Assembly (NCBI GenBank): GCA_026023565.1
Contig: JAPETS010000013.1
Location: 1 to 64,000, forward strand
From: Cirrosporium novae-zelandiae
Lineage: Eukaryota
DNA: 64,000 nt
Direction of reading: 5' to 3'
Shown here: one piece after another, positions 27,468 through 41,766 of the stretch
Numbering within the stretch: position 1 is the first letter of the stretch
Layout: every line of letters starts with the position of its first letter
Program-made: the position numbers and the translations under genes
Notes under the pieces: model-generated
The model's input: only the letters and a program-made list of their open reading frames with translations
Told to the model about the DNA's origin: nothing
The model's database searches: none

Positions 27468-28509
27468 ACTGACAATAATTCTTTACGGCACATGTCTGTT
27501 TACGATATGATTTTCCTAAAATCCACGATAACAAAGATAATCTGGAAGGGCTCTATATCCCGCTTGGACAGACTGGATATCTGATTGGTCTGGTTGGGGA
27601 AGGGATTGAGTGTATGCAAGGAGGTGATGTTTGTCCGGCTGTACATTATGAAGCAATGGCGTTGACCGCGACTACATAATGCTGCACGATGGGCTTTATG
27701 ATGCACACGTACAATTTGGGTTGGATGTGGAGACATGAAGGATACCGGCTGTACCTTGTTGACTTGTTTCTGGCAGCATAAGCATGCTATTTGTGTTTTT
27801 GTGATGGCAAAGTACATTTTCAGTACATGTATAGTTTGGCTTTGACAATGATGAATGTAATCCAAGGATAGATTCCTGTTGGTGGGGACCATTAACCCAA
27901 CAGGGATGCCTAAACAACTGAAGGTAGAGGTACGGTATTTTGTATCACGTGCTGGTCCCTGTGAGACTGGTGAATGTCATTGGAAATATGAAATATCAAA
28001 TGGACTTGCAAACATTGATATTCATATGGATCGACGACGTAAGAAATATGGGATCCAGTAAGGCTTAGTGAACATCTAAATCCCCTAGTTATAGCTTCTA
28101 AATAGCCATCAACAAGCTTGAAATGTATACTAAAATATTTTTTCAACGGTGGTTCGGATGATGGGCACAACGTGGTAATAAGCTCAAGGCCAATGGTGTA
28201 GTCGCACGCTAATAGTACACCCATGCAAGGATTCTTGCTCATGACACCAACGTTTTGCCTCCAGAAAAGATATCCCGATCCAACGCGCAAAAAAAAGCCA
28301 ACCTTTTGCCTTTCAAACATCCACCTTGCCAACGATAATCCCCTCTCCCCCTTTACGATTTCTTATCATCTCTGTTTAATCAACCTCTTCACGTTCTGAA
28401 GACCTTCGGACGATCCTTCCCGGCCTCTGCATCCTTGAAAGCCTTCCTACCTACTTTGACAGTGGCATTCTAAAAACCTTCCGTTTGCTCCCTTACCTCG
28501 CTGCCCAAA

Positions 28510-30639
28510 ATGGCTCCATACCGTCGCAAAAATCTTGTTGCAAGTCGGAGGCGGGTAGAAGATGAGGGAGAAGAAGAGGAAGGATCGACCACGCTTGATC
28601 TAGATGATGATTCATTGAGCGAGGGATCGATGATTAGCACTGCAGACGATGATGCGGATGGGGAAGGCAGCGACATCACCGAAGAGCCTGTCATCTCATC
28701 GACTGAAAAGGATATGATCAAGTCATCTACAAATGGTCATGTCAAGGTGGATCAGAACCCTGTCAAGGAGACAATTTCATCGACTGTTTTACTATCCTCT
28801 GCCGCTATGACGACGGATACTGAAGCTATGATGAATGGGCTGGATATACCGGGTAATATTGAAATTGAAGAAGGTATCTCGTTTGAGGAGATGACGGAAG
28901 AAGGGGGAGAACCGCAGAGAGTCCAAGAACCCCAATGGCAAGTCGCAGCAAGGAAGAGGGACAATCCAGCGGAAAGGAGACGGCGGGAACATGAAGACTA
29001 TAAAAAAAAGCGTGATGAAGATCCTGCATTTGTTCCTAACCGTGGTGGCTTCTTTATGCATGATCAACGTTCTGGGAGGACTGCGGGGCAGAACGGGTTT
29101 CGATCTTCCAGAATTCAAACCAAGGCTGCGGTCCCAGGTCCTCCCAATATATCAAGGTAATTACTTTGCATACTCATTTGACCAACTACGCTAACATGGT
29201 TATGTAGGCCACCCCAAACATCAGAACCTACAGATGTTAGATGGGCTCATGACCTTCATGAGGATATTTCGAAGCCAGAGACTCCAAGTCAAGAACATCA
29301 GAATGGAACGGACAAATCAGGCAATAGCTTTCCAATGAAGAACTCCTCTACACCACCTGGAATGGGACCACCTCGATCCTTCTCGCATGATCGTCATATC
29401 GGAAATGTGCAGCTACGGGTTTTGCTCCCCAATATGGCCAGTCCCATAATCTTTTCGGGAGTTCCAGTAAAACAGCACACACGTCTCCCCAATCACCGAC
29501 CTCCTCTCCGCCGAGACAAACCTGTTCGTATTTCGCTTCCGGACCATCCCCCTCGATACATCTTTCCGTCAATGCAAAGATCTTTCATCTTTATTCCTCG
29601 CGCCCTTCGCCCGAACCAGCAGATGTATCAACGTGGGAGAAATCGGGGAACCTATGGCGGATATGGCAATTATCCTTCCAGAAGGACAAGCATGTACGGA
29701 GGATCTGTTCATACCCCAAGCGTTGCTATGAGTCGACGGTCATCAATGGGTCGAACATTTCCTCAAGGTGAAGCCATGTCTAGAACTGGGTCGGCCACTT
29801 CAAAAACTGCCTATGGGCCCATGGATCCAAATAAACCGGTTGTTCGTTTACCACCTGCTGGTCAGCAACCGCATGACATGGCACCTTCAAGGCCTCTGCT
29901 TCCAACGTCAATGGGTGCTGGCCAAGTTGTTGATGGCCAAGTTACCCATTCTCATCCAACCCCTCAAGCATTTGCCATGCGTGACAGCCATTCGGAACCC
30001 ATCCCTATGCATCAGCCTCGACCCCAAAAGACTGTTACGGTTGCAGACCTAGAGTCTCCAGCCTCGCTTCCCTTTAATCCCCCTCAACAGCAACAAGAAC
30101 AGCCATTCCATCAACAGGTTCCCGCTCAAATCAATGGAAACATGATGGGGGTTGCCGACGGTGCTTTCAATGGGCAAATTCCGCCAGCAAGTCATCCTAA
30201 TAGTACACCGCTTCCCCAGATCCCCGAGCGGGCAGTTCATGCTCCAATGTTTCAACCTTATCAATACCCTTCCATGCCAGGCTATTATCCTCAACCATAC
30301 CCTCCACAGCCAGTTTACTACTACCCACCACCTCCTACCGAGTCACCAGCTTACAGTAACGTTCCGGTACCCACTGCAACTCCATTTGTTCCGGGTTCAC
30401 AGCCAGTACCATATATGATGCCTCCGGCTCCGCCAGCTACGGAAGCTACAGGTCAATCTGGGGTTGTTGCTCATGAAAGCAATGGCATGGTTTACTATTA
30501 TGATTCATCACAACAAGTTCCACCTCCTGGTCCACCATACCCTCCTACAAGTTACAACGTGCATGGAATGATGACGCCTCCTGGTGGTTACTATTATCCT
30601 CCGATGCAAGGACCTGTCTATTATCCGAACCAGCAATAG
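28510..30639 (+). CDS. Btz/CASC3 (Barentsz, eIF4AIII-binding) domain protein with Pro/Tyr-rich tail, 2 exons
   Basis: DPAFVPNRGGFFMHD and, after intron 29157-29207, RWAHDLHE; downstream HRPPLRRDKPVRISLP and ESNGMVYYYD. Confidence 0.8.
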
Positions 30640-32707
30640 CACAGCAAGCAGTCTTGTTGTTTTTCGCATTGATGATCTCAGTTGCTATTACCCTTTAATT
30701 ATCGTTTTACTTGTTTCCAGCGGGTTTGGCACAGAGGGTGTTATTGGGGATGGTGGAGGCATTGTTGCATTTCAGCGGTTAACGGCGTTTGGGTTCACTT
30801 CTGCTCCTAGGCTTTGGCTTTTGACTTTGATATTAGGGTTTCCTGGACAGGCGAGATGCATACACAGCTTTCCAGGTTACCTTAACTTTTGACCGTACTG
30901 ATCTTTATTATTATTCTACCTATTCTTATCCTTATCTACCTTAGCAAGCAGCGAGGGACGAAACGGTTTTATTCCACCCATGACGCTTCTTTAACTCGTG
31001 GTCTTTTACTATTGTCGGTACTTGTTGATCCGGCGAGTCTTCTTATGGATATCTTTTGTTGCTTTTAGTTTTCTCAAGCAGGGATCGGGGGGTTTGTTGG
31101 AATGAACGGAGGACGAAAAGCAAGGAGGACGTCGGCAGATGAGAGTTGTTGGCTAGGGACGGAATTGAAACTGGAATAAGTTTTAGATTTTTGTCAGCCA
31201 AGGTGATTTAAAGGCAGCGTGAGCGGCCATACATGGGCGGCCATAGTTTTCAAAATCAATGGAACTTGTCGATGGTTGCGCAATCGAGGACAAGTAGTTT
31301 CTGTCTCTGAATTCTTAGTTCTGGTAACGAGTACCCCCGCAAAAAAAGGGCAAATGGCAACTCCACAACGGCAAGTACCGTGTGCGGGGGTTGAGAAGAT
31401 CCGGAAAGAAATGGGTACTGACCGTATCGACGGTATTAACCATTAACCGTTAACCGTATTAACCGTATTAGTGGTATTGACCGTATTGCGTAGGTAATCA
31501 TTGGCATTACGACATGTCGGTTTCTGCAAAGTCTTGCATGGTTTACTAAGATTGTGGTCACTCTGGTACCTTGGTACATGTGGGGGGAGGGGGACACACA
31601 TGATGATTAATTTCGATGAGATTGGATTACAAGTTGCAAGTCACGTAAGTCCAGGAAAGCCTGCCACGCCTGCGTCGGGAAGATGGCGTGGATGGAAATA
31701 TAATGGAATTTATAAGCGGTGCAACCCTCGACCAAGCTGCAACCTGCAACCCGGGAATGACTAACTCATTTCCTCGCTATTCCGGGGTTATTTGAACTTC
31801 ACGATTTTCTTTCCCTTTCTTTTCTTTTTCTCCTTTGTTTTTTAATCACAATTGGCCCCTGCTACCATGGATCAAGAGGCAAGTACCCGTCACGAAGGAG
31901 GGTTAAGGGCGGTCAGCAACGGCTTGCTTACCTGCTTGATACTGCTGTAGTGTAGTGGTAAAGGGACTGAACAGGAAATACAAGTACCTGTACCGAGTAG
32001 TTCGTTATAGGTAGAGGCAATTATGAGCGAATACATCCAGATATCGAGGTATGAGTTATCTATGGTAGAGCTAATCTAAGTGAGATCTACAAAAGAGGGT
32101 CCGGAGCCTCCGTTTTAGCTCAGTTGGTTCAGAGACACAAGAGGGAGAGGGGGGGGGGAACGTGTGTATTATATAACTAAGTAATGAAATGATAATGAGA
32201 TTACTGTAAATGCAGGTATTGGATGACGGTGATGACTAGCCAATATTCGTAGGACTGATGCCTATTGCGCGGTTTGGCTTCGTTTGGCTTTCCTTTGGCT
32301 TCATTTCACTCCACCACCGCCTCACTCAACTTACCACCCACCTAAAGGTACAGTAGGCACCACCGATGGCCAGTTTCTAAGCTACGACCACCCCTCAATC
32401 CACTCACTTTACCATTTGCCTTCTTCTTACCTTTCCACCTCCACTCTTCAAGCTACTCTCTAACTCAGCTTTCCCAGCTCGCTTTCCTTCTTTCTCATCT
32501 TCTTCCCTTCCCCCCTCGAAAATCAATCCTCAACTTCCATCCCTATTTCATCACATCTAATTATTAAATACCTTATCTAGTTATTCTTGTATCCCTTGAT
32601 CATAACTAACCCCCCAGATCTCGATTCTCTCATCACCCCACACCAAACCATCCCCGACTTCCCTCCCCCCTCCCCCCCCCAAAAGAGTCGGTGGACCTGC
32701 CATCATC

Positions 32708-35700
32708 ATGTCTTCCCTACCACAACCAGTTACCCTGGATACTCCTATCACTGTCAAGGTCATTATCGATAATACTAACCGTCGATTTAAACTTCCTCTG
32801 AGAGCATGCTCTGCAACCGCGTTTGATGAGAAGGTAAGATCCTGCCTGATGTACCAATCTACCCTGACTGCAGTCATCTTCCGACCGCTATCAGGCAACT
32901 ACTTTCATCAAGCTTTCTATTCAACTACATGTCTTAAGATCATCAACAAAACCTACACATTATCTCATCAAATAAACCTGCTAACTCTTTCTCTCAGCTC
33001 CGATTCCTCCTAGCTATTCCTCCAAATGAAACAATAACCATTGACCGTTATTCCGACAGTGCCGCATCCTACATCACTCTCGACCGGAATCTCCCCTCAG
33101 TCTACAAGCAACTATTTAGAGCTGCAAAAGCAAAGCTTAAGCTTCGAATCAGAGTGACCCGTCAAATCAACTCTAGTCCTGACGTTTCTACAACTAATTC
33201 ACTCCCAACGTTGCCACAGCCTCTCCTACATCCAGAGCCTCTTGTACCGGTACCGGCCTTGGAACCTTTAATTAAGGACGTGCCAGTTGAGGAAGAACAC
33301 AAGGACGAAGCCCCAGTCCCAAGCCCCTTTGCAGCTTCAACCGACACCTTCGTCGACCCTTCATATTATCCCAAGACACTTGCACACGATCTCATCTTTC
33401 CCACCGATCGATCTATATCTAGTATGGCTTCATTCCGCATTGACTGCAACCACTGCAATAAACCAGTCTCCAACAAACATTTTCACTGCAGCATTTGCGA
33501 TAATGGGGACTTTGATTTGTGCCCGGCTTGTGTTGACGCCGGTGTATCTTGCGGTGGCGAAGGTCACTGGCTGATTAAAAGGTCATTCGAGAATGGCCAT
33601 GTTATTACAAGTACTACTGAACGCCTTCCACCATCCAAGAAAGCCGACGAGACACCTGCGCCTACTCCTGAAAAGCTTACTGAAAAATCAGTTGAACACA
33701 TTGAACCTGCCAAGGTGGTTGAAGAGGTTCAGGAAAAGATTCCAGAGATTCCTTGTCTGACTCGTATTTGCAACTCTTGCATTGAAGGTACGATGGCTTT
33801 TCTTGGTTTGCGGTAGTACATTAAATTTCTGCTAATACCGAATCTAGTTCGCCCGGAATCTGAAATGGTGACATGCAAAGACTGTGAGGACTATGACCTC
33901 TGTCTTGGTTGCCATCTTGATAATAAACATGGACATAACCCACGTCACACATTCACAGGTATTGGCGCCCACATCTTGGACGACGCGTCTATAGCTTTAG
34001 CGAGTCCTGGGCGTAACACTCGTCATCCTGCAATCTGCGATGGATGCGACAAGGTATGCCTTTCTTATGCAGGATATCCTATTTTCGCTAACAATTTGTA
34101 GACCATCTTTGGCCTGCGTCATAAGTGCCTGGAATGTCCAGACTACGATCTGTGTGCCAACTGCAAGTTATCGGCACCTGAAATTCATCCTCGTCATCGC
34201 TTTGTCTGTGTGACAGAGGTCCAAAACCTAGAGACTTCTCATGGCCCTATGCCCATCCATTTCGGCATCACTTGCGATGGGGTATTGTGCAAAACCAAGA
34301 CTCTCAAGCGATACATCTATGGTGTTCGCTACAAGTGTGCTGTATGCCATGATACCGATTTCTGTGCCAACTGCGAAGCATCTCCATTAAACCGTCATAA
34401 CCGAACTCATCCTTTGATCAAATTCAAAACCCCTGTACGCAATGTCTCTGTCACAACCTTGGGTGATAAGGTTAATGGCGATGAGACCTTGGTAATGGGA
34501 GATCAGATGCCAAAGACGAAGTCCAAGTCCACCGAGACCGTTCCAGCAGCTCCTTCTGCCAATGCTGCGACCCAGGTCCAAACCGTGGCGGAAGTCAAGC
34601 CAACCGAAAATGACCCAGAACAGTACAGAAAATCAGTTGCTGATCTCAGAGAAAAGATTGCTATTCTCTCCCAGCGTCTAAGAAATAGACTAGATGAGGA
34701 GCGTGCAAAGGAAGCTTCATCCGCCGAGACACGTCCGACCTCAAGTTCGAAGTTAAAGTCCAAGGCTTGCTCTCATTGGCTTCAAACTGGTCAATGTGAG
34801 TTTGGTCAGGATTGCATCTATAGACACGAAAGTCAAGATCTGGTTAAGATTAAGGTCCCTGAAGATCTTGAAATCACTAAAGAGGAGTTCGTTATCAAGG
34901 GGGATATTATCGCGCCTGCACCATCGCAAGACCTCCAAGCACACTTTATCAAGGATATTGTTCCTGATAGCACCAAAGTTGAGCCAAATCAACGTTTCAG
35001 TCAAGTCTGGACTCTCCGAAACCCTGGCCCTCGTGCTTGGCCAGCCAATTGTAGTGTACGTTTTGTCGGTGGGGATAATATGCTTGATGTTGACAGAGAT
35101 CACCCATCAAACTCAGACATGCTTAATGAAGCTACTGAGAGTAACGTTATTCGTCATGTCGTACAAGTTGGTGAAACTGTCAATTTCGAAGTCTGTATGA
35201 AGGCTCCTGAACGCGAAGGCAAAGCCATCTCATACTGGCGTCTTAAGACCTTTGCTGGTGTTCCTTTCGGTCACAAGCTTTGGTGCGAGGTTGACGTTTG
35301 CAAAGTTCCCGAAGCTACTGTTGCTGAGACTGAGCATGTTGAGTATGCCCCCGAGACCTCCGAGGAGCCAGCTGTTGAGGAAGAATCGGTACCAAAAGAG
35401 CCAGCCGATGAGCCAATCAAAGAGTCGGTCGATGAGCCAGTCACAGAGAAGGTCGAGGAGGTTGAGGAGAAGTTTGAAGAGTCACAAGAAACTGCCACTG
35501 CTGAAAAGGAACAATCCGAGAGTCAAATGATTTTCCCCACACTTGAAAAGGAGTCACCAGTGTCTAGCACCCACGAACTAGCTTCAGCACATGAAGCCCA
35601 TGAAGACCATATTTCCGCAGTCGAGATCGATCACGCAGTTGCTGAATTGAGCGAATATGATGGCGACGACTGGGAAGAAGGCGTAACTGATGACGGGTTT

Positions 35701-35778
35701 GTCACTGATGAGGAATACGACATTCTCGATGCCAGTGACGAAGAATATCTGGATGCGCAACAGGCTCCCAGGAAGTAG
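32708..35778 (+). CDS. NBR1: NBR1-type selective autophagy receptor: PB1-like N-terminus, four ZZ zinc fingers, coiled coil, CCCH finger, FW domain, acidic tail with AIM/LIR; 4 exons
   Basis: Introns 32834-32997, 33788-33847, 34054-34101; ZZ motifs (CNHC..CSIC..DFDLC, CKDC..YDLC, CDGC..CLECPDYDLC, CDG..RYKCAVC..DFC); FW domain (F-Q-W-LRNPG--AWP...SYWRL...PFGHKLW); C-terminal TDEEYDIL. Confidence 0.88.
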
Positions 35779-37094
35779 AATTTTCTGGTTACACGAGGCG
35801 TCTAGGTTGACCCGATCACATTCATCCCCTCTTCGACTGCTCATTCATCCTGCGGTGGGCTACAACCATCTAAAGCTTTGTCCTTCCTTACGTTCCAAAT
35901 TGATATGATGTGTACGTGTGCCGTTTGGATAGTCGAACTATGCGGAAATGAGGAGTTTTTTTTATTTGTTATCCGGAGGAACTGATATCTAACAATGGGA
36001 ACATTGGAGAAAGGGCTCTCTAGCTCTACTCCATATGTTAGGTTTCTAGGGTCGTTTTTATAGTATATTATAGCCTTTCTTTTATCAATGGCATTCGTTC
36101 ATCAATCAGTGGATTTTCAGATGATTTTTTTCTTGTAGTTTCTTGCAAGGCAAGAAGCAACGGCGTAGGGTATGTAAACTTTGCCAGCAGACGGTGATGA
36201 TATACAAGGCCAATAGTCTAGACGTAATATTCCAATTAAACCATCTTAGCCTTGGTTATCAGCACGGTCGGTTAGTGAATTTTCGTTTTATATTTAAGAG
36301 TAAAGAGGATACTACCTATGAAGAATTACTAGAAGCGAAAATATCTTCCAAGTTAATCGATCTTAGCTTACGATCAGGGTCTCAAAGGCTTATTATATAT
36401 TATCAGAACATAGGAACATAGGATGAAGGAATGTTTTATATTTTAAATATTATACATTATAGTACATAGATATATCTATCTAGGCGGGTTGTTCGGTGTA
36501 CTGTAGGAGTAATACGTCGGCGTAAGTCAGTCATAAATAAAAGTATTTGGATGGAAATGTGACTTGATCATTGACAACACAATACAGTATAAATACATAA
36601 ATCAATAAACAAACAGCCTCGGCGACCTACCTACCTATTCGTTCGTTCGTTCGATTTATGGGTACGTATGTATATATGTATGTATGCTGGGGTTTAAAGA
36701 CTAATAAGACTAAGACTCAGGAAAGGTAGATATGGGGTTATGACGCAACTACTGTAGGTGATATCTATGGCTAAATACTAGACTAGGTAGATTAGGCATC
36801 TGTTTAAGTTAATTAGCGGATACCTATAGACTAATTACTGTGGTATCCTTTGGGCTTATAATTAGTAGATGGTAAGAGTGTTTTGTTGGCTTTGCCTCTA
36901 ACTTCCGATTGGGGGGGGAATGATTAATGATTAATCGTATGGTATAAATAAACAGTATACTTTTTTTTTAATTTCCTCCTGCAAGTAGGGACGGATGGAG
37001 TAAGTGCCTAGTTAACATACATAAGAGTCGCTAGAAATTAGAACAAGGGAATGATGGGGAAAAATTATATAAAATGCTTGCAACTTCTTTGCGT

Positions 37095-37324: not shown

Positions 37325-40300
37325 CTACCGTCTCCCAACTCCGGGTCCGCCTCCACCTCTCCTCATCGACTCCCACAACTTCTTAAACCCGTTGCACAAG
37401 CTAACCATATCCGGATATTGATTACGCACGAGGTCGAAGGCACCAGGGATCACTCGCACGTTCCAGCTCTGTAGGTGTGCATGCTGCCCCGCTTTGAAGC
37501 ATAGGTAGAAGTAGCCAGGATGCTTTGGGTCCAGGCAGAAGGCGTAGTTGGCTCGTTTGGGATTTGCTTCCGTGTACGTTGTTAACCAGCGTTCTGTTTA
37601 TTGTAATGGTTAGTAGCCTGTTGAGGAAAATATGGTTTTGTCTGGAAGGGAAAAATAGCATACCAGTATCACTCTTGCTCCCCTTTTGGAACTTCTCATG
37701 CCCACACATCTCATCCACCTTCCTCGCCATCGCTCGAACGTGATTCGCAATCAATTCGTCCAAATCACTGTACGTCCATTTGCCTGCAACCTTCAAAGTT
37801 TTGCCGACGCTGAAAGGGTTCTCCTTATCCAGTTCCAGTACATCAATGTGTTGGTATATCCCATCTGCAACTTTCCAGCTCACACAGAGGTGATCTGTTC
37901 CCTTTGACGATGGACGGATCACGCAATCGCCGCGACCCTGACTCCCCAAATATTCTTCAGCTTGTGTAAATGAAAATGGTTTGAAGAGAGGATGCTTGAT
38001 GACACGTTGTGTGCGGCCTGAGACATCCGCTTTGGATTCTGAGTGTTTCTTGTCTTCCATTTCTTGGGTTTCGTCCCATTCTCCCCTGGGTCTCCCAATT
38101 TGTCTACGCCACGGTCGGCGGAGAACATCTTCACGGAGGGAGACATTTGCTAAAAGACCCTTCACATTCAGACTCATGATTTTTGCTTGTACAGTTTGGT
38201 GTACTGCGTACAGTTGGCGGGGGGAGATATCAAGACGGTCAGTTAGCTCTGTTTCAGAAACGATGGCGTCAATACCACAGTCGAGTTTTGCATCGATGTG
38301 GTCGTCGCTTACACGCTTTATTGAGATTGGGACAATCATGCCTTCCTGTAGAGATTCACGGGTCTCGCCTGTGAGCATGGTGAAAACATCCTCTGAAGAT
38401 AGGGAACGGAATGGTTTTCGAAGTTCCTCATAAGGGGAGATAAGTTCTTCACGAATGGTTTCTAACGTTGCGCGTTTTCGTTGCATAAACGTCTTTTCAA
38501 GTTGTTCGGCGTATTCCTCAAGCACCAAGTCATTGACTTTATCTTGGGCATCTTCTTTGATCAGCTTGCGAACTACAGCAGAAGGTCCATTTTCGTCTTG
38601 CTCGGCCTTGACATCTTCCTCATCGAGTTCAAGAGCATCGGCTGCAATTTTACGAGCAAGCTCATAATCTTCTGGGTGGACACGAGTCGAATCAAGGTAA
38701 TCAGAGTCATCAGACATATTGTTGTAGTCGATAATGAAGAAGGAAGCACAGTTGATCAAAACTTTCTCTCCCACGGCAGCTAATTTTCCCTCTTCAGGGT
38801 CACCCGCAAGATCACCGCGAGAGCTGATGCTGCCGCCGTTGATATTGATCGTTTTCAGAAGTTGCGTAGCTTTACGTTGACCGAGACCACAGACGTAGGG
38901 GAGGAGGTTGGCAACAGAGGGTTGGGAAAGGGCGTCGTTGATATTAACGCCAGTAAGGTTAACCATGTCGACAAGGGCGGTTTCGAGGGATTTCATGAGT
39001 TTTTCTTGAGGGAGGAAGTTCTGGTTAGGATCAAAGGAGATAGAGATAATATCTCTGCCTAAAGCAGCGTATTCCTTAAGAGGGCTCTGCATATATCGGC
39101 CAAGGCCAACGCAGTAGTGTGTTAGAGGGGCAAACCCTGGATGCTCCATTTGAGCCCTCTCACTGTTCTGATAAAGACGAGCAACTTCATCATTAACAAT
39201 AAGAACATCCACCTGCTCAGAAATTGGACCACCGTCATCATTGTTATTTTCCGGTCCATGTAGGTTCTTGACTTCGACAAGCTCTGATACATTCTTGTAT
39301 AGTCGACGAGTTTCAGGGGAGAAGCCAGAAATACCAATGACATCTGGTCTGCGACGCTCGATCAGATCAACGAAAGCATCTACATCAGCCCCATCTCTGA
39401 TGCCTCGCTCCGGATCTCCAACAGCAAGATCTGTAAATTTGCCATTCTCAAGAACACGCCCGTCTTCGTCAACCCAAGCCCAGCAAATGGCGTCCCGTCC
39501 CGAGTTCCCATGACCGTTCGACATGGCAAGAACTCTTGGTTCAGTCCCAGCAAGCCATCCCTTGGGTTTGAATGGCATTTGGTCCAACCTATTAGTAAAC
39601 TCATTCCTGCAACTCTTAGCTACATGCGTCTCACATTCATTTCTCAGGTTTTCCCTGACACCTCGGGCTAGAATCTTATCAAGCTTTCCTAGGGCCACAT
39701 CCAGTACATCTCGTCTTTCTTTGTTCCATGCATCTGCAATCTCGCTAAGGTTGTCGGATTCAAGGTCTGTATATAAATGTTGTTTGATTTGATCCAGGCC
39801 TTGAAGTTTGAGTTTGATCTCGATGAGACCCTCTTCCTCTGCCTTTAGCATTCGAAGAAAGCGGCCAGGATATCGTGCGATATCCTGCATTTGCTGATTG
39901 CGGAGATACTTGAATTCATAATAAGGATGCTGCTCATCAATTTTGCGTAATCCTTTCTCGGTCCTAAAGACGTCAAACGCTCCATTCATGTAATAATAAG
40001 TTCGCATGACTTTTCGGAATTTCGGACTCATTGTCAATTCTTCAGCAAACATGGTCTTGGCTGCTCGGAACGCCTGACTTCCCGTTGAAATTTCAGTGCC
40101 ATCCAGAATATCCTCTTTGTCAGCCATGTCGTCGGGGCGTTCATTGGGGTCCTCTGTGTAATGCTTTCGTGCATCTCGTGCGGAAGTTTGACTGAAACGA
40201 CGCGAAGCATTTTGAGCAAAAGCATCTGCAGTAATACCAAAGGCCCGAACAAGATTGTAAACCTTGCCGTTTCGAATCCGTTCAAAAATCGACTTTTGAG

Positions 40301-41766
40301 CTCCCGGTCTTCGCTGGCTGTTGGCATTCTCGGTACTATTTACCAAAGCAAGATCCCGTAGCTGTGAGGAGTATTGAAAGTGAAGATAATCTTGAATATC
40401 CGAAAGCTCTTCCATAGCATTAGCTTGAGGAAGCATATCCTCAAATATCTCATCATTCACATTGGTGATACTCTTCAAATTGTCATAGGTTCTCTGTAAG
40501 GAGTTTCTCTTCTCGATCAAAGCCCGGTACTTTAGGTCCAGTTCAAATATATCCCATAGGTCGCCGGGTTCGAATAGTTTGATAGGGCGGTCGGGGTCTT
40601 CAGGCAACGTGTGAATCAAGTAGTCCTTTCGGTGATACATGATGAATGGGATTTCCACATTGTCAACGGTCAAAAATTCCAGAATCTTTCCCACTGAGAA
40701 CCAAAAAGGTTCTTTCAACTCTGGATCATGTTGCTTCTTCGGCCATAATAGATTACCAACCCAGTCAATCTCATCTTTCCGTTGGTCTTCGGTAAGTTCG
40801 AGACCTTCATATGGCTTACGTGCAATCTGAAAACGTTCAGGAACATCGGTATTGCGAATAACGTTGTCTTCTTCCGTCAACATTTTCTCCGCAAGTTGGG
40901 ATGGTTCGAAAACATCCTTCAGCTCGATGGGTTTCTCTGGATCGTGCTCCATCTCCTCTTCTTGTTCTTCAAGGCTCAAAGCCCAGTCGTATTCTGTACC
41001 ATCCCCAAATGCCAATCTCATATCTTCCATGGCTTGTTCGTCTAAGCCGGCTAAATCCGATGGCCCAACACCAGCAAATCCCTTTTTAGCTGGCCTTGCG
41101 ACTTCAGCATCATCTAACTGTTGAGCCCCACCCTCATTGGAAAACTCGTCTTCTTCGATAAAGTCGTCAAACTCATCAAACTCTCCTCGGCGCCCTTTTG
41201 TTGGGATATCGTCTTCTTCTTCGGAATCGAATATATCGTCGATACCGCGGCCGCCACGGCTTTCCCGATCTTCTCGGTGACCGCGCTTCAATCGCTTCAA
41301 CTTGGGCTATCAATGTAGTGTAAGTAAGAGCATATTTTATTGACCAATATTCCTACCTCGGTGGGTGCTCGTCTCTCGAGCTCTGGATGTGCCTCTCCAA
41401 TCAGGTCCAAATCTTCTTCATCCAGACCTTCTTCTTCGCGTTCTTCGCGCCGTCGTTTTCTTCTTTCGCGCTTTCTTGCCTCTCTTTCTTCGTCATCTTC
41501 GTCTTCGTCTACAATGAAGCCTTCGCGGACCTTGAGAGCACCAGCATGTTAGTTTGCTACATCGAATAAAATGTTTCCAGATGTACCTCTCGCTCAGCTT
41601 CTTCGTCGTCATCATCATCTTCTTCTTCACTTGAGTCCTCAAATCGAGCCTTTGCACCCTTGGGTTTGGGCTTTGGTTTATGCTCTCCCGTTTCTTCGTC
41701 AAATGAATCCTCGTTTTCGTCATCGTCAAGCTCAGCTTCACCTTCAATTAAAGAGTTAGGATCCAT
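37325..41766 (-). CDS. SPT6: Transcription elongation factor and histone chaperone Spt6, 4 exons
   Basis: Acidic N-terminus, [17 protein letters not shown], YqgF/HhH region ([13 protein letters not shown]), [12 protein letters not shown]1 and tandem SH2 ([15 protein letters not shown]); introns 41531-41586, 41307-41356, 37594-37663; stop at 37325-37327. Confidence 0.96.

What the first reader, a model, noticed from the sequence alone, without database searches (positions are those of the whole stretch)
34612..34830. NBR1-type autophagy receptor with a coiled coil and a CCCH zinc finger between ZZ4 and the FW domain
Seen: inside the open last exon, EQYRKSVADLREKIAILSQRLRNRLDEERAKE is followed by LKSKA-C-SHWLQTGQ-C-EFGQD-C-IYR-H (34768-34827), an exact C-x8-C-x5-C-x3-H finger with the usual aromatic positions and a KSKAC lead-in like the KTxxC of TTP-type fingers. 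Established: fungal Nbr1 proteins bind vacuolar hydrolase cargo through ZZ and FW domains and Atg8 through an AIM; CCCH fingers usually bind RNA. I do not know of a CCCH finger in a described Nbr1. Inference: this could be a receptor that sends RNA or RNPs to autophagy, or a lineage-specific domain gain.
Basis: partly seen in the sequence, partly recalled or inferred. Interest (0 to 1): 0.72.

Follow-up and report, generated by a model that had tools for sequence, protein, structure and literature searches.

The report
Fungal autophagy receptor gained zinc finger
In one isolated fungal lineage, the Nbr1 protein that carries cargo to the vacuole has gained an extra helix and an intact zinc finger of a type that usually binds RNA; the gain looks real, but it was seen in this species only and its job is untested.

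Summary
Observation confirmed. The gene (32708-35778, +, four exons) encodes a 932-aa Nbr1, identical to the NCBI model from Cirrosporium novae-zelandiae. It has a PB1-like domain, four ZZ domains, an FW domain with an intact cargo pocket, and a C-terminal AIM-like motif. About 90 extra residues (34606-34875) sit in the ZZ4-FW linker: a three-heptad amphipathic helix, a spacer and one C-x8-C-x5-C-x3-H finger. The finger is not chance: 27.9 bits on an independent profile against at most 16.8 in shuffles with the four ligands fixed. The insert has host codon usage, and no in-frame intron with canonical signals removes it. No finger was found in 239 other Nbr1 proteins or 80 metagenomic Nbr1 loci, and no DNA-level donor in the genome. 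No close relative was available, so conservation is untested. It is a single finger, not a TTP-type tandem, and two usually basic positions are not basic. Best reading: a retained, lineage-restricted gain that gives an ordinary Nbr1 a weak RNA contact, made multivalent by oligomerisation. RNA delivery to the vacuole is possible, not shown. New variant; interest 0.45.

The parts
32708..32833 (+). Nbr1 exon 1 (ATG; first part of the PB1-like domain)
   Evidence: splice model translates to 932 aa, identical to NCBI model P0001
32998..33787 (+). exon 2: rest of PB1-like domain (to about 33165), low-complexity linker, ZZ1 (about 33430-33627), start of ZZ2
   Evidence: AlphaFold pLDDT 92-97 with strand-strand-helix-strand-strand-helix-strand order over aa 13-97; PB1 not hit by Pfam, name inferred
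33848..34053 (+). exon 3: end of ZZ2, start of ZZ3
   Evidence: Pfam ZZ 23.6 bits
34102..35778 (+). exon 4, 558 codons plus stop
34249..34455 (+). ZZ4 (aa 424-492)
   Evidence: mean 74% identity to 86 orthologues; Pfam ZZ
34522..34602 (+). conserved linker motifs SKSTET and NAATQVQTVAEVKP (aa 515-541), left border of the insert
   Evidence: A[AG][TS]Q[VI][QH]T in 159 of 218 linkers, [ST]ET in 171 of 218
34606..34875 (+). lineage-restricted insert, about 90 aa (aa 543-632; borders approximate)
   Evidence: ZZ4-FW linker 171 aa against median 81 (98 of 120 measurable) or 87 (218 of 240); mean identity to orthologues 7%
34615..34728 (+). amphipathic helix aa 546-583 with heptad Y549 V553 L556 I560 L563 L567 (possible short coiled coil)
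   Evidence: AlphaFold helix, pLDDT 86-90 over aa 551-580; only 1 of 218 linkers, this one, passes a crude heptad score of 4
34768..34827 (+). CCCH zinc finger, ligands C597 C606 C612 H616
34927..35298 (+). FW (N_BRCA1_IG) domain with pocket residues F656 D659 D663 L767 W768
   Evidence: Pfam 123 bits; match to CtNbr1-FW in 7VQO, E 6e-34; pocket conserved; only FW match in the genome
35707..35727 (+). AIM/LIR-like motif DEEYDIL (aa 910-916)
   Evidence: same motif near the C-terminus of 140 of 240 proteins examined, the set including fragments and fused models; Atg8 binding inferred

Best explanation
An otherwise ordinary filamentous-fungus Nbr1 took up a helix-plus-CCCH module in its disordered ZZ4-FW linker and has kept it. 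Shown: the module is in frame, has host codon usage, is a normal-scoring CCCH finger, and leaves the FW pocket and AIM-like motif intact. Inferred: (1) it binds zinc; (2) its retention without decay, with no close donor left, reflects selection; (3) F608/Y614/W600 and the Arg/Lys-rich helix give a weak single-stranded RNA contact; (4) PB1 oligomerisation, perhaps helped by the helix pairing, displays many fingers and supplies avidity, so the receptor touches RNA or RNPs, either as added cargo or as a regulator of its assembly, while still carrying hydrolases by ZZ and FW. The structural part (real exonic finger, lineage-restricted gain) I put at about 0.88; the confidence given is for the whole chain including RNA contact.
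For: Splice model identical to the deposited gene model. Codon adaptation 0.848 against 0.757 +/- 0.024, 0 of 2000 random recodings as high; ZZ4 0.857, FW 0.866, intron 1 0.789; coding log-odds positive only in the reading frame. None of 71 in-frame GT..AG pairs over the finger has both YAG and a branch-point motif. Finger significance. Model pLDDT 79-88 over the finger with an 8-row alignment; its structural matches are CCCH proteins at 0.4-0.8 A over 21-22 residues in many rows, though none reaches E 0.001. Best PDB sequence matches are TTP/TIS11-type fingers. No DNA paralogue, no paralogue of the helix, closest finger in the genome only 44% identical, yet all ligands and aromatics are kept. 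PB1 mediates oligomerisation (PMC9233695, passages). Precedents for RNA-linked receptors: p62 binds vault RNA through ZZ (review PMC10642158, passages); yeast Rsa1 is a ribosome receptor (PMC12152620, abstract) and a NUFIP1-domain protein of this genome carries a CCCH finger.
Against: One genome only; no relative carries the insert, so selection cannot be measured. Single finger, not a tandem. The 20-residue core has 1 K/R and 2 D/E; E607 and I613 replace positions that are K/R in about 60% of 736 related fingers. Pfam scores straddle the cut-offs. In the full-length model the finger is low confidence (pLDDT about 40), where no alignment row covers it. CCCH proteins also act through proteins and DNA (PMC9698766, passages). 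A consensus donor GTGAGT lies inside the finger at 34796, with in-frame AAG acceptors 69-144 nt on but no branch-point motif, so alternative splicing is not excluded. A second Nbr1 (P0378) has an unrelated Myb domain in the same linker, which shows that the linker tolerates inserts.
Confidence: 0.42

Rival explanations
1. Tolerated passenger: a piece of another gene landed in frame in a permissive disordered linker, folds, but does nothing useful; the donor was lost or is missing from the assembly.
For: Linker length varies from 79 to 178 aa; a single JGI record has a Myb domain in the same linker; the insert is known from one record only.
Against: No DNA-level donor and host-like codon usage suggest age, yet the finger scores like working fingers; a neutral finger should have decayed.
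Confidence: 0.25
2. The finger and helix are under selection but bind a protein: a new cargo or adaptor, or the helix dimerises Nbr1 as CC1 does in vertebrate NBR1, with the finger as a structural or protein-binding unit.
For: Non-basic finger surface. All known Nbr1 cargo domains bind proteins (PMC9233695). Human NBR1 self-interacts through CC1, and Atg19/Atg34 have a CC (PMC9582228, passages). CPSF30 fingers bound to Fip1 are among the structural matches.
Against: The base-stacking aromatic positions F608 and Y614 are kept; the helix has only three heptads.
Confidence: 0.22
3. Artefact or non-coding: the segment is a retained or alternative intron, or an assembly chimera in a genome deposited as a MAG.
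For: Single record labelled MAG; consensus donor inside the finger.
Against: 270 nt without a stop (chance 0.006 from local non-coding composition), in frame at both ends, coding-type codon usage, no in-frame intron with YAG and branch point; no second copy in the assembly from which a chimera could be made.
Confidence: 0.08

Closest known systems
Chaetomium thermophilum Nbr1 (PB1, four ZZ, FW, LIR; PDB 7VQO; PMC9233695)
   Same: Same domain order; FW pocket F651/D654/D658/L762/W763 corresponds to F656/D659/D663/L767/W768.
   Different: R761 is K766 here (K in 33 of 86 orthologues); no helix-CCCH insert is described for CtNbr1 in the passages read.
Sordaria macrospora SmNBR1, pexophagy receptor (review PMC7162830, passages)
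   Same: No UBA, repeated ZZ, LIR-dependent Atg8 binding.
   Different: No CCCH finger mentioned; the primary paper was not held.
TTP/TIS11 tandem CCCH proteins (1M9O, 1RGO, 9Y10)
   Same: C-x8-C-x5-C-x3-H spacing, G-x-C-x-(F/Y)-G-x-x-C-x-(F/Y)-x-H pattern, Lys in the lead-in.
   Different: Single finger, no 18-residue linker to a second finger, lead-in KLKSKA rather than YKTEL.
Fungal CCCH proteins with a C-x-Y-W-x-x-x-G-x-C core (this genome: G000:C63 801567 and C82 50474)
   Same: Best finger matches in the genome, 44% and 41% identity, sharing Trp at +3 and the Y(K/R)HE end.
   Different: No match to the helix or to DNA; donor status not shown.
NUFIP1/Rsa1 ribosome receptor and p62-vault RNA
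   Same: Autophagy receptors linked to RNA or RNPs; a NUFIP1-domain protein here has one CCCH finger.
   Different: Rsa1 is unrelated to Nbr1; p62 uses its ZZ domain and RNA regulates it rather than being cargo.
Vertebrate NBR1 coiled coil CC1 (PMC9582228, passages)
   Same: A self-interaction helix in an NBR1 protein; from my recall CC1 also lies between ZZ and FW.
   Different: No similarity to it was found or tested; the helix is absent from the other 217 fungal linkers scored, so it is an independent gain.

Membership tests
Nbr1 (definition in PMC9582228: FW plus PB1 or ZZ) | FW domain | tested here: met
   Pfam PF16158 123 bits, cut-off 28; 7VQO match
Nbr1 | ZZ domains (four in filamentous fungi) | tested here: met
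   PF00569 74 bits, 3 stretches, plus ZZ_ADA2 at 192-226; four confident modules in the model
Nbr1 | N-terminal PB1 domain | tested here: inconclusive
   No Pfam hit; confident folded domain aa 13-97, 54% mean identity to orthologues; fold not searched
Nbr1 | FW cargo pocket residues | tested here: met
   F656, D663, L767, W768 invariant and D659 in 84 of 86 orthologues
Nbr1 | AIM/LIR that binds Atg8 | tested here: inconclusive
   Motif DEEYDIL present and conserved; binding not testable
CCCH zinc finger (PF00642 clan) | C-x8-C-x5-C-x3-H ligands | tested here: met
CCCH zinc finger (PF00642 clan) | Non-ligand signature (Gly, aromatics) above chance | tested here: met
   27.9 bits against max 16.8 in 4821 ligand-fixed shuffles
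CCCH zinc finger (PF00642 clan) | Pfam gathering threshold | tested here: inconclusive
   20.1, 16.5 and 21.5 bits against 20.5 depending on context
CCCH zinc finger (PF00642 clan) | Zinc and RNA binding | not testable with these tools
   needs experiment
TTP/TIS11 tandem zinc finger | Two fingers 18 residues apart | tested here: not met
   one finger only
TTP/TIS11 tandem zinc finger | (R/K)YKTEL lead-in | tested here: not met
   KLKSKA; only the Lys is shared
Coiled coil | Heptad repeat in a long helix | tested here: met
   three heptads; helix 546-583
Coiled coil | Helix-helix pairing | not testable with these tools
   needs SEC-MALS or CD

The most novel reading that the evidence does not exclude
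This Nbr1 is a selective-autophagy receptor that recognises RNA or RNPs directly through a captured CCCH finger, arrayed by PB1 oligomers and a new coiled coil, and carries them to the vacuole beside its hydrolase cargo. With the Myb insert in a second Nbr1, the ZZ4-FW linker would be a slot where receptors gain new cargo-reading domains.
Probability: 0.18. Interest if true: 0.78.

Novelty: new variant of a known kind. Interest (0 to 1): 0.45.

Why it matters
Nbr1 is described as the archetypal selective-autophagy receptor, and its cargo domains bind protein N-termini. A natural Nbr1 with a dedicated RNA-type finger would show a receptor changing cargo class by domain capture and would give a clean test: graft or delete 90 residues in a tractable Nbr1 and ask whether RNA goes to the vacuole. 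The value is limited by the single species, which sits alone on its branch. A full-text search for Nbr1 + CCCH + fung listed 6 papers, none on this subject by title or abstract start; subscription papers and supplements were not searched.

Tried and rejected
Sequencing runs: no RNA holder listed for 32600-35900, so no reads were laid; no evidence either way. Homodimer prediction of aa 540-625 with zinc: no verdict, score 0.03, mark 0.32; no evidence either way. Donor search: phmmer of the insert over 1.84 billion representatives gave 1243 hits at E <= 0.001; the 150 listed are this protein and 149 multi-stretch proteins (3-15 matched stretches each, best stretch centred on the finger), ranked by summed score, so it names no donor; best single finger 13 of 28 identical. 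Word search with aa 530-640: only itself among 159 candidates. Metagenome scan with the insert: 0 of 408 pattern matches confirmed. ESM Atlas: no feature hit; structure rows are CCCH clusters, all TM < 0.5; no hit for the C63 paralogue. Short direct repeats between the insert and the upstream linker (15 nt, 87%) are within chance (15% of 200 shuffles), so internal duplication is not supported. The first profile (736 fingers from query-selected hits) is circular, so the genome-derived profile is the one relied on. TTP membership rejected. LC8 binding not modelled: the genome's LC8 gene is split by introns. Earlier findings of this scan: none. Werner et al. 2019 not held. The NBR1-ribophagy search listed 10 of 29 papers, all reviews by their titles, none on this case.

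Full report
Gene. The + strand gene starts at 32708, has three GT-AG introns (32834-32997, 33788-33847, 34054-34101) and stops at 35778, giving 932 aa. That translation equals the deposited model KAI9735803.1 of Cirrosporium novae-zelandiae, alone in its 90% cluster. NCBI places the species in Xylobotryomycetes; a phylogenomic paper used it as the only representative of that class and recovered it as an early branch of Eurotiomycetes (PMC12238968, passages). It is the only FW-domain match in the genome. Domain order matches C. thermophilum Nbr1: PB1, four ZZ, FW, LIR (PMC9233695, section 6). The FW residues that grip the Ams1 N-terminus are kept, and DEEYDIL at 910-916 is an AIM-like motif shared with many orthologues.

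The observation. The finger is at 34768-34827 and is the only C-x8-C-x5-C-x3-H in six frames of the window. Pfam places it at the edge of the cut-offs, which is why the precomputed domain list of this protein omits it. Better tests are clear. On a profile of 23 other fingers of the same genome it scores 27.9 bits; shuffles that keep the four ligands in place reach at most 16.8 (4821 of 5000 scored), and the genuine fingers score 11.9-41.4 leave-one-out. With an 8-row alignment AlphaFold gives pLDDT 79-88 over the finger, and the structural matches are CCCH proteins, many at 0.4-0.8 A over 21-22 residues, though none is significant for so short a query. In the full-length model the helix 546-583 is confident (86-90) and the finger is not (about 40), where no other row covers it.

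Is it exonic? Codon adaptation of the insert is 0.848, like ZZ4 (0.857) and FW (0.866), against 0.757 +/- 0.024 for random recoding, 0 of 2000 as high. Of 71 in-frame GT..AG pairs overlapping the finger, none has both a YAG acceptor and a branch-point motif; the two candidates with good signals shift the frame and cut into FW. A consensus donor, GTGAGT at 34796, does lie inside the finger, so a minor spliced form remains possible. No transcript evidence could be examined.

Distribution. The ZZ4-FW linker is 171 aa here, against a median of 81 in the closest set (98 of 120 measurable) and 87 overall (218 of 240). No other listed Nbr1 has a finger: best score 1.8 bits among 239 against 32.3 here (these are the listed best of 1426 and 159 hits). 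The 80 kept of 157 confirmed metagenomic loci score at most 4.2 bits, longest linker 129 aa in the 70 measurable. Only this linker has a heptad helix (1 of 218, crude score). Searches with the insert alone return no relative. But the protein sits on a terminal branch of 0.50 substitutions per site (median 0.09; nearest neighbour 0.76 away; 87 sequences, unrooted), so absence elsewhere neither dates the gain nor tests conservation. A more distant Nbr1 with its own finger could lie among the unlisted hits.

Origin. There is no DNA copy of the insert in the genome and no paralogue of the helix. The nearest fingers are in two fungal CCCH proteins of this genome, 44% and 41% identical. Capture from such a gene long ago is the simplest inference; no donor is identified. 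One other Nbr1 record (P0378, JGI, single sequence) has a Myb domain, 41.8 bits, in the same linker just before the AATQVQT motif, which shows that the linker accepts folded inserts.

Mechanism. An intact finger with no close donor and host-type codons suggests retention under selection (inference). The aromatics that stack RNA bases in TTP-type fingers (recalled role; alignment) are kept, and the helix adds 9 K/R in 33 residues, with 7 D/E. Against strong binding: one finger, an incomplete lead-in, E607 and I613 at usually basic positions. A lone finger would need avidity, which PB1 oligomerisation could supply. I therefore favour a weak, multivalent RNA contact added to a normal hydrolase receptor (0.42), over a tolerated passenger (0.25), a protein-binding or dimerising module (0.22) and artefact (0.08). 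Whether RNA would be cargo, as ribosomes are for Rsa1 (PMC12152620, abstract), or a regulator, as vault RNA is for p62 (PMC10642158, passages), is open; direct RNA cargo delivery I put at 0.18.

Novelty. A member of the Nbr1 family by the stated definition (PMC9582228, passages), with an architecture not found in the proteins examined or in the full-text search Nbr1 + CCCH + fung (6 listed papers, judged by title and abstract start) or 'selective autophagy receptor' + CCCH + RNA-binding + Atg8 (2 listed). Supplements were not read, and domain tables there could bear on this claim. Verdict: real, a new variant of a known kind, one species, function untested; interest 0.45.

Noticed in passing
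window 34522-34602; orthologue linkers: Two strongly conserved motifs in an otherwise disordered linker, S(K/T)(A/S)TET and NAATQVQT(V/I)A(E/D)xKP (159 of 218 for the second). They resemble dynein light chain LC8 TQT-type motifs (recalled, not from a call); the strict [KR]xTQT form is in 0 of 218. No held paper has NBR1 + LC8 + TQT. If LC8 clamps Nbr1 here, the new helix follows the clamp directly.
   Followed up: partly
P0378 aa 541-592: A second fungal Nbr1 (single JGI record) has a Myb/SANT domain inserted in the same ZZ4-FW linker.
   Followed up: partly
window 28474-30639 (+): Btz/CASC3 gene (PF09405) lies 2 kb upstream of nbr1 on the same strand. Five deposited models list Btz and Nbr1 domains in one protein (P0282, P0283, P0325, P0338, P0366), Btz first in the three scanned: conserved synteny and probably merged gene models.
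   Followed up: partly
L005:499-1941 (G000:C52): NUFIP1-domain protein (Rsa1-like) with a C-terminal CCCH finger; an Ascomycota cluster of 143 has the same pair of domains.
   Followed up: partly
L003:1192-2388 (G000:C63), L002 (G000:C82): Fungal CCCH proteins with a C-x-Y-W core and YKHEMP end; closest fingers to the insert; no Atlas hit for L003.
   Followed up: partly
Dothideomycete Nbr1 linkers (e.g. P0270, P0054, L041): A different lineage-specific addition at the same spot: two repeats of KI(E/K)(I/V)xDLL.
   Followed up: no
window 37422-41306 (-): Long ORF of 1294 codons that reads like the Spt6 elongation factor (recalled, not scanned), convergent with nbr1.
   Followed up: no
window 31430-31490: Short degenerate repeats (accgtattaacc-like) in the Btz-nbr1 intergenic region.
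   Followed up: no
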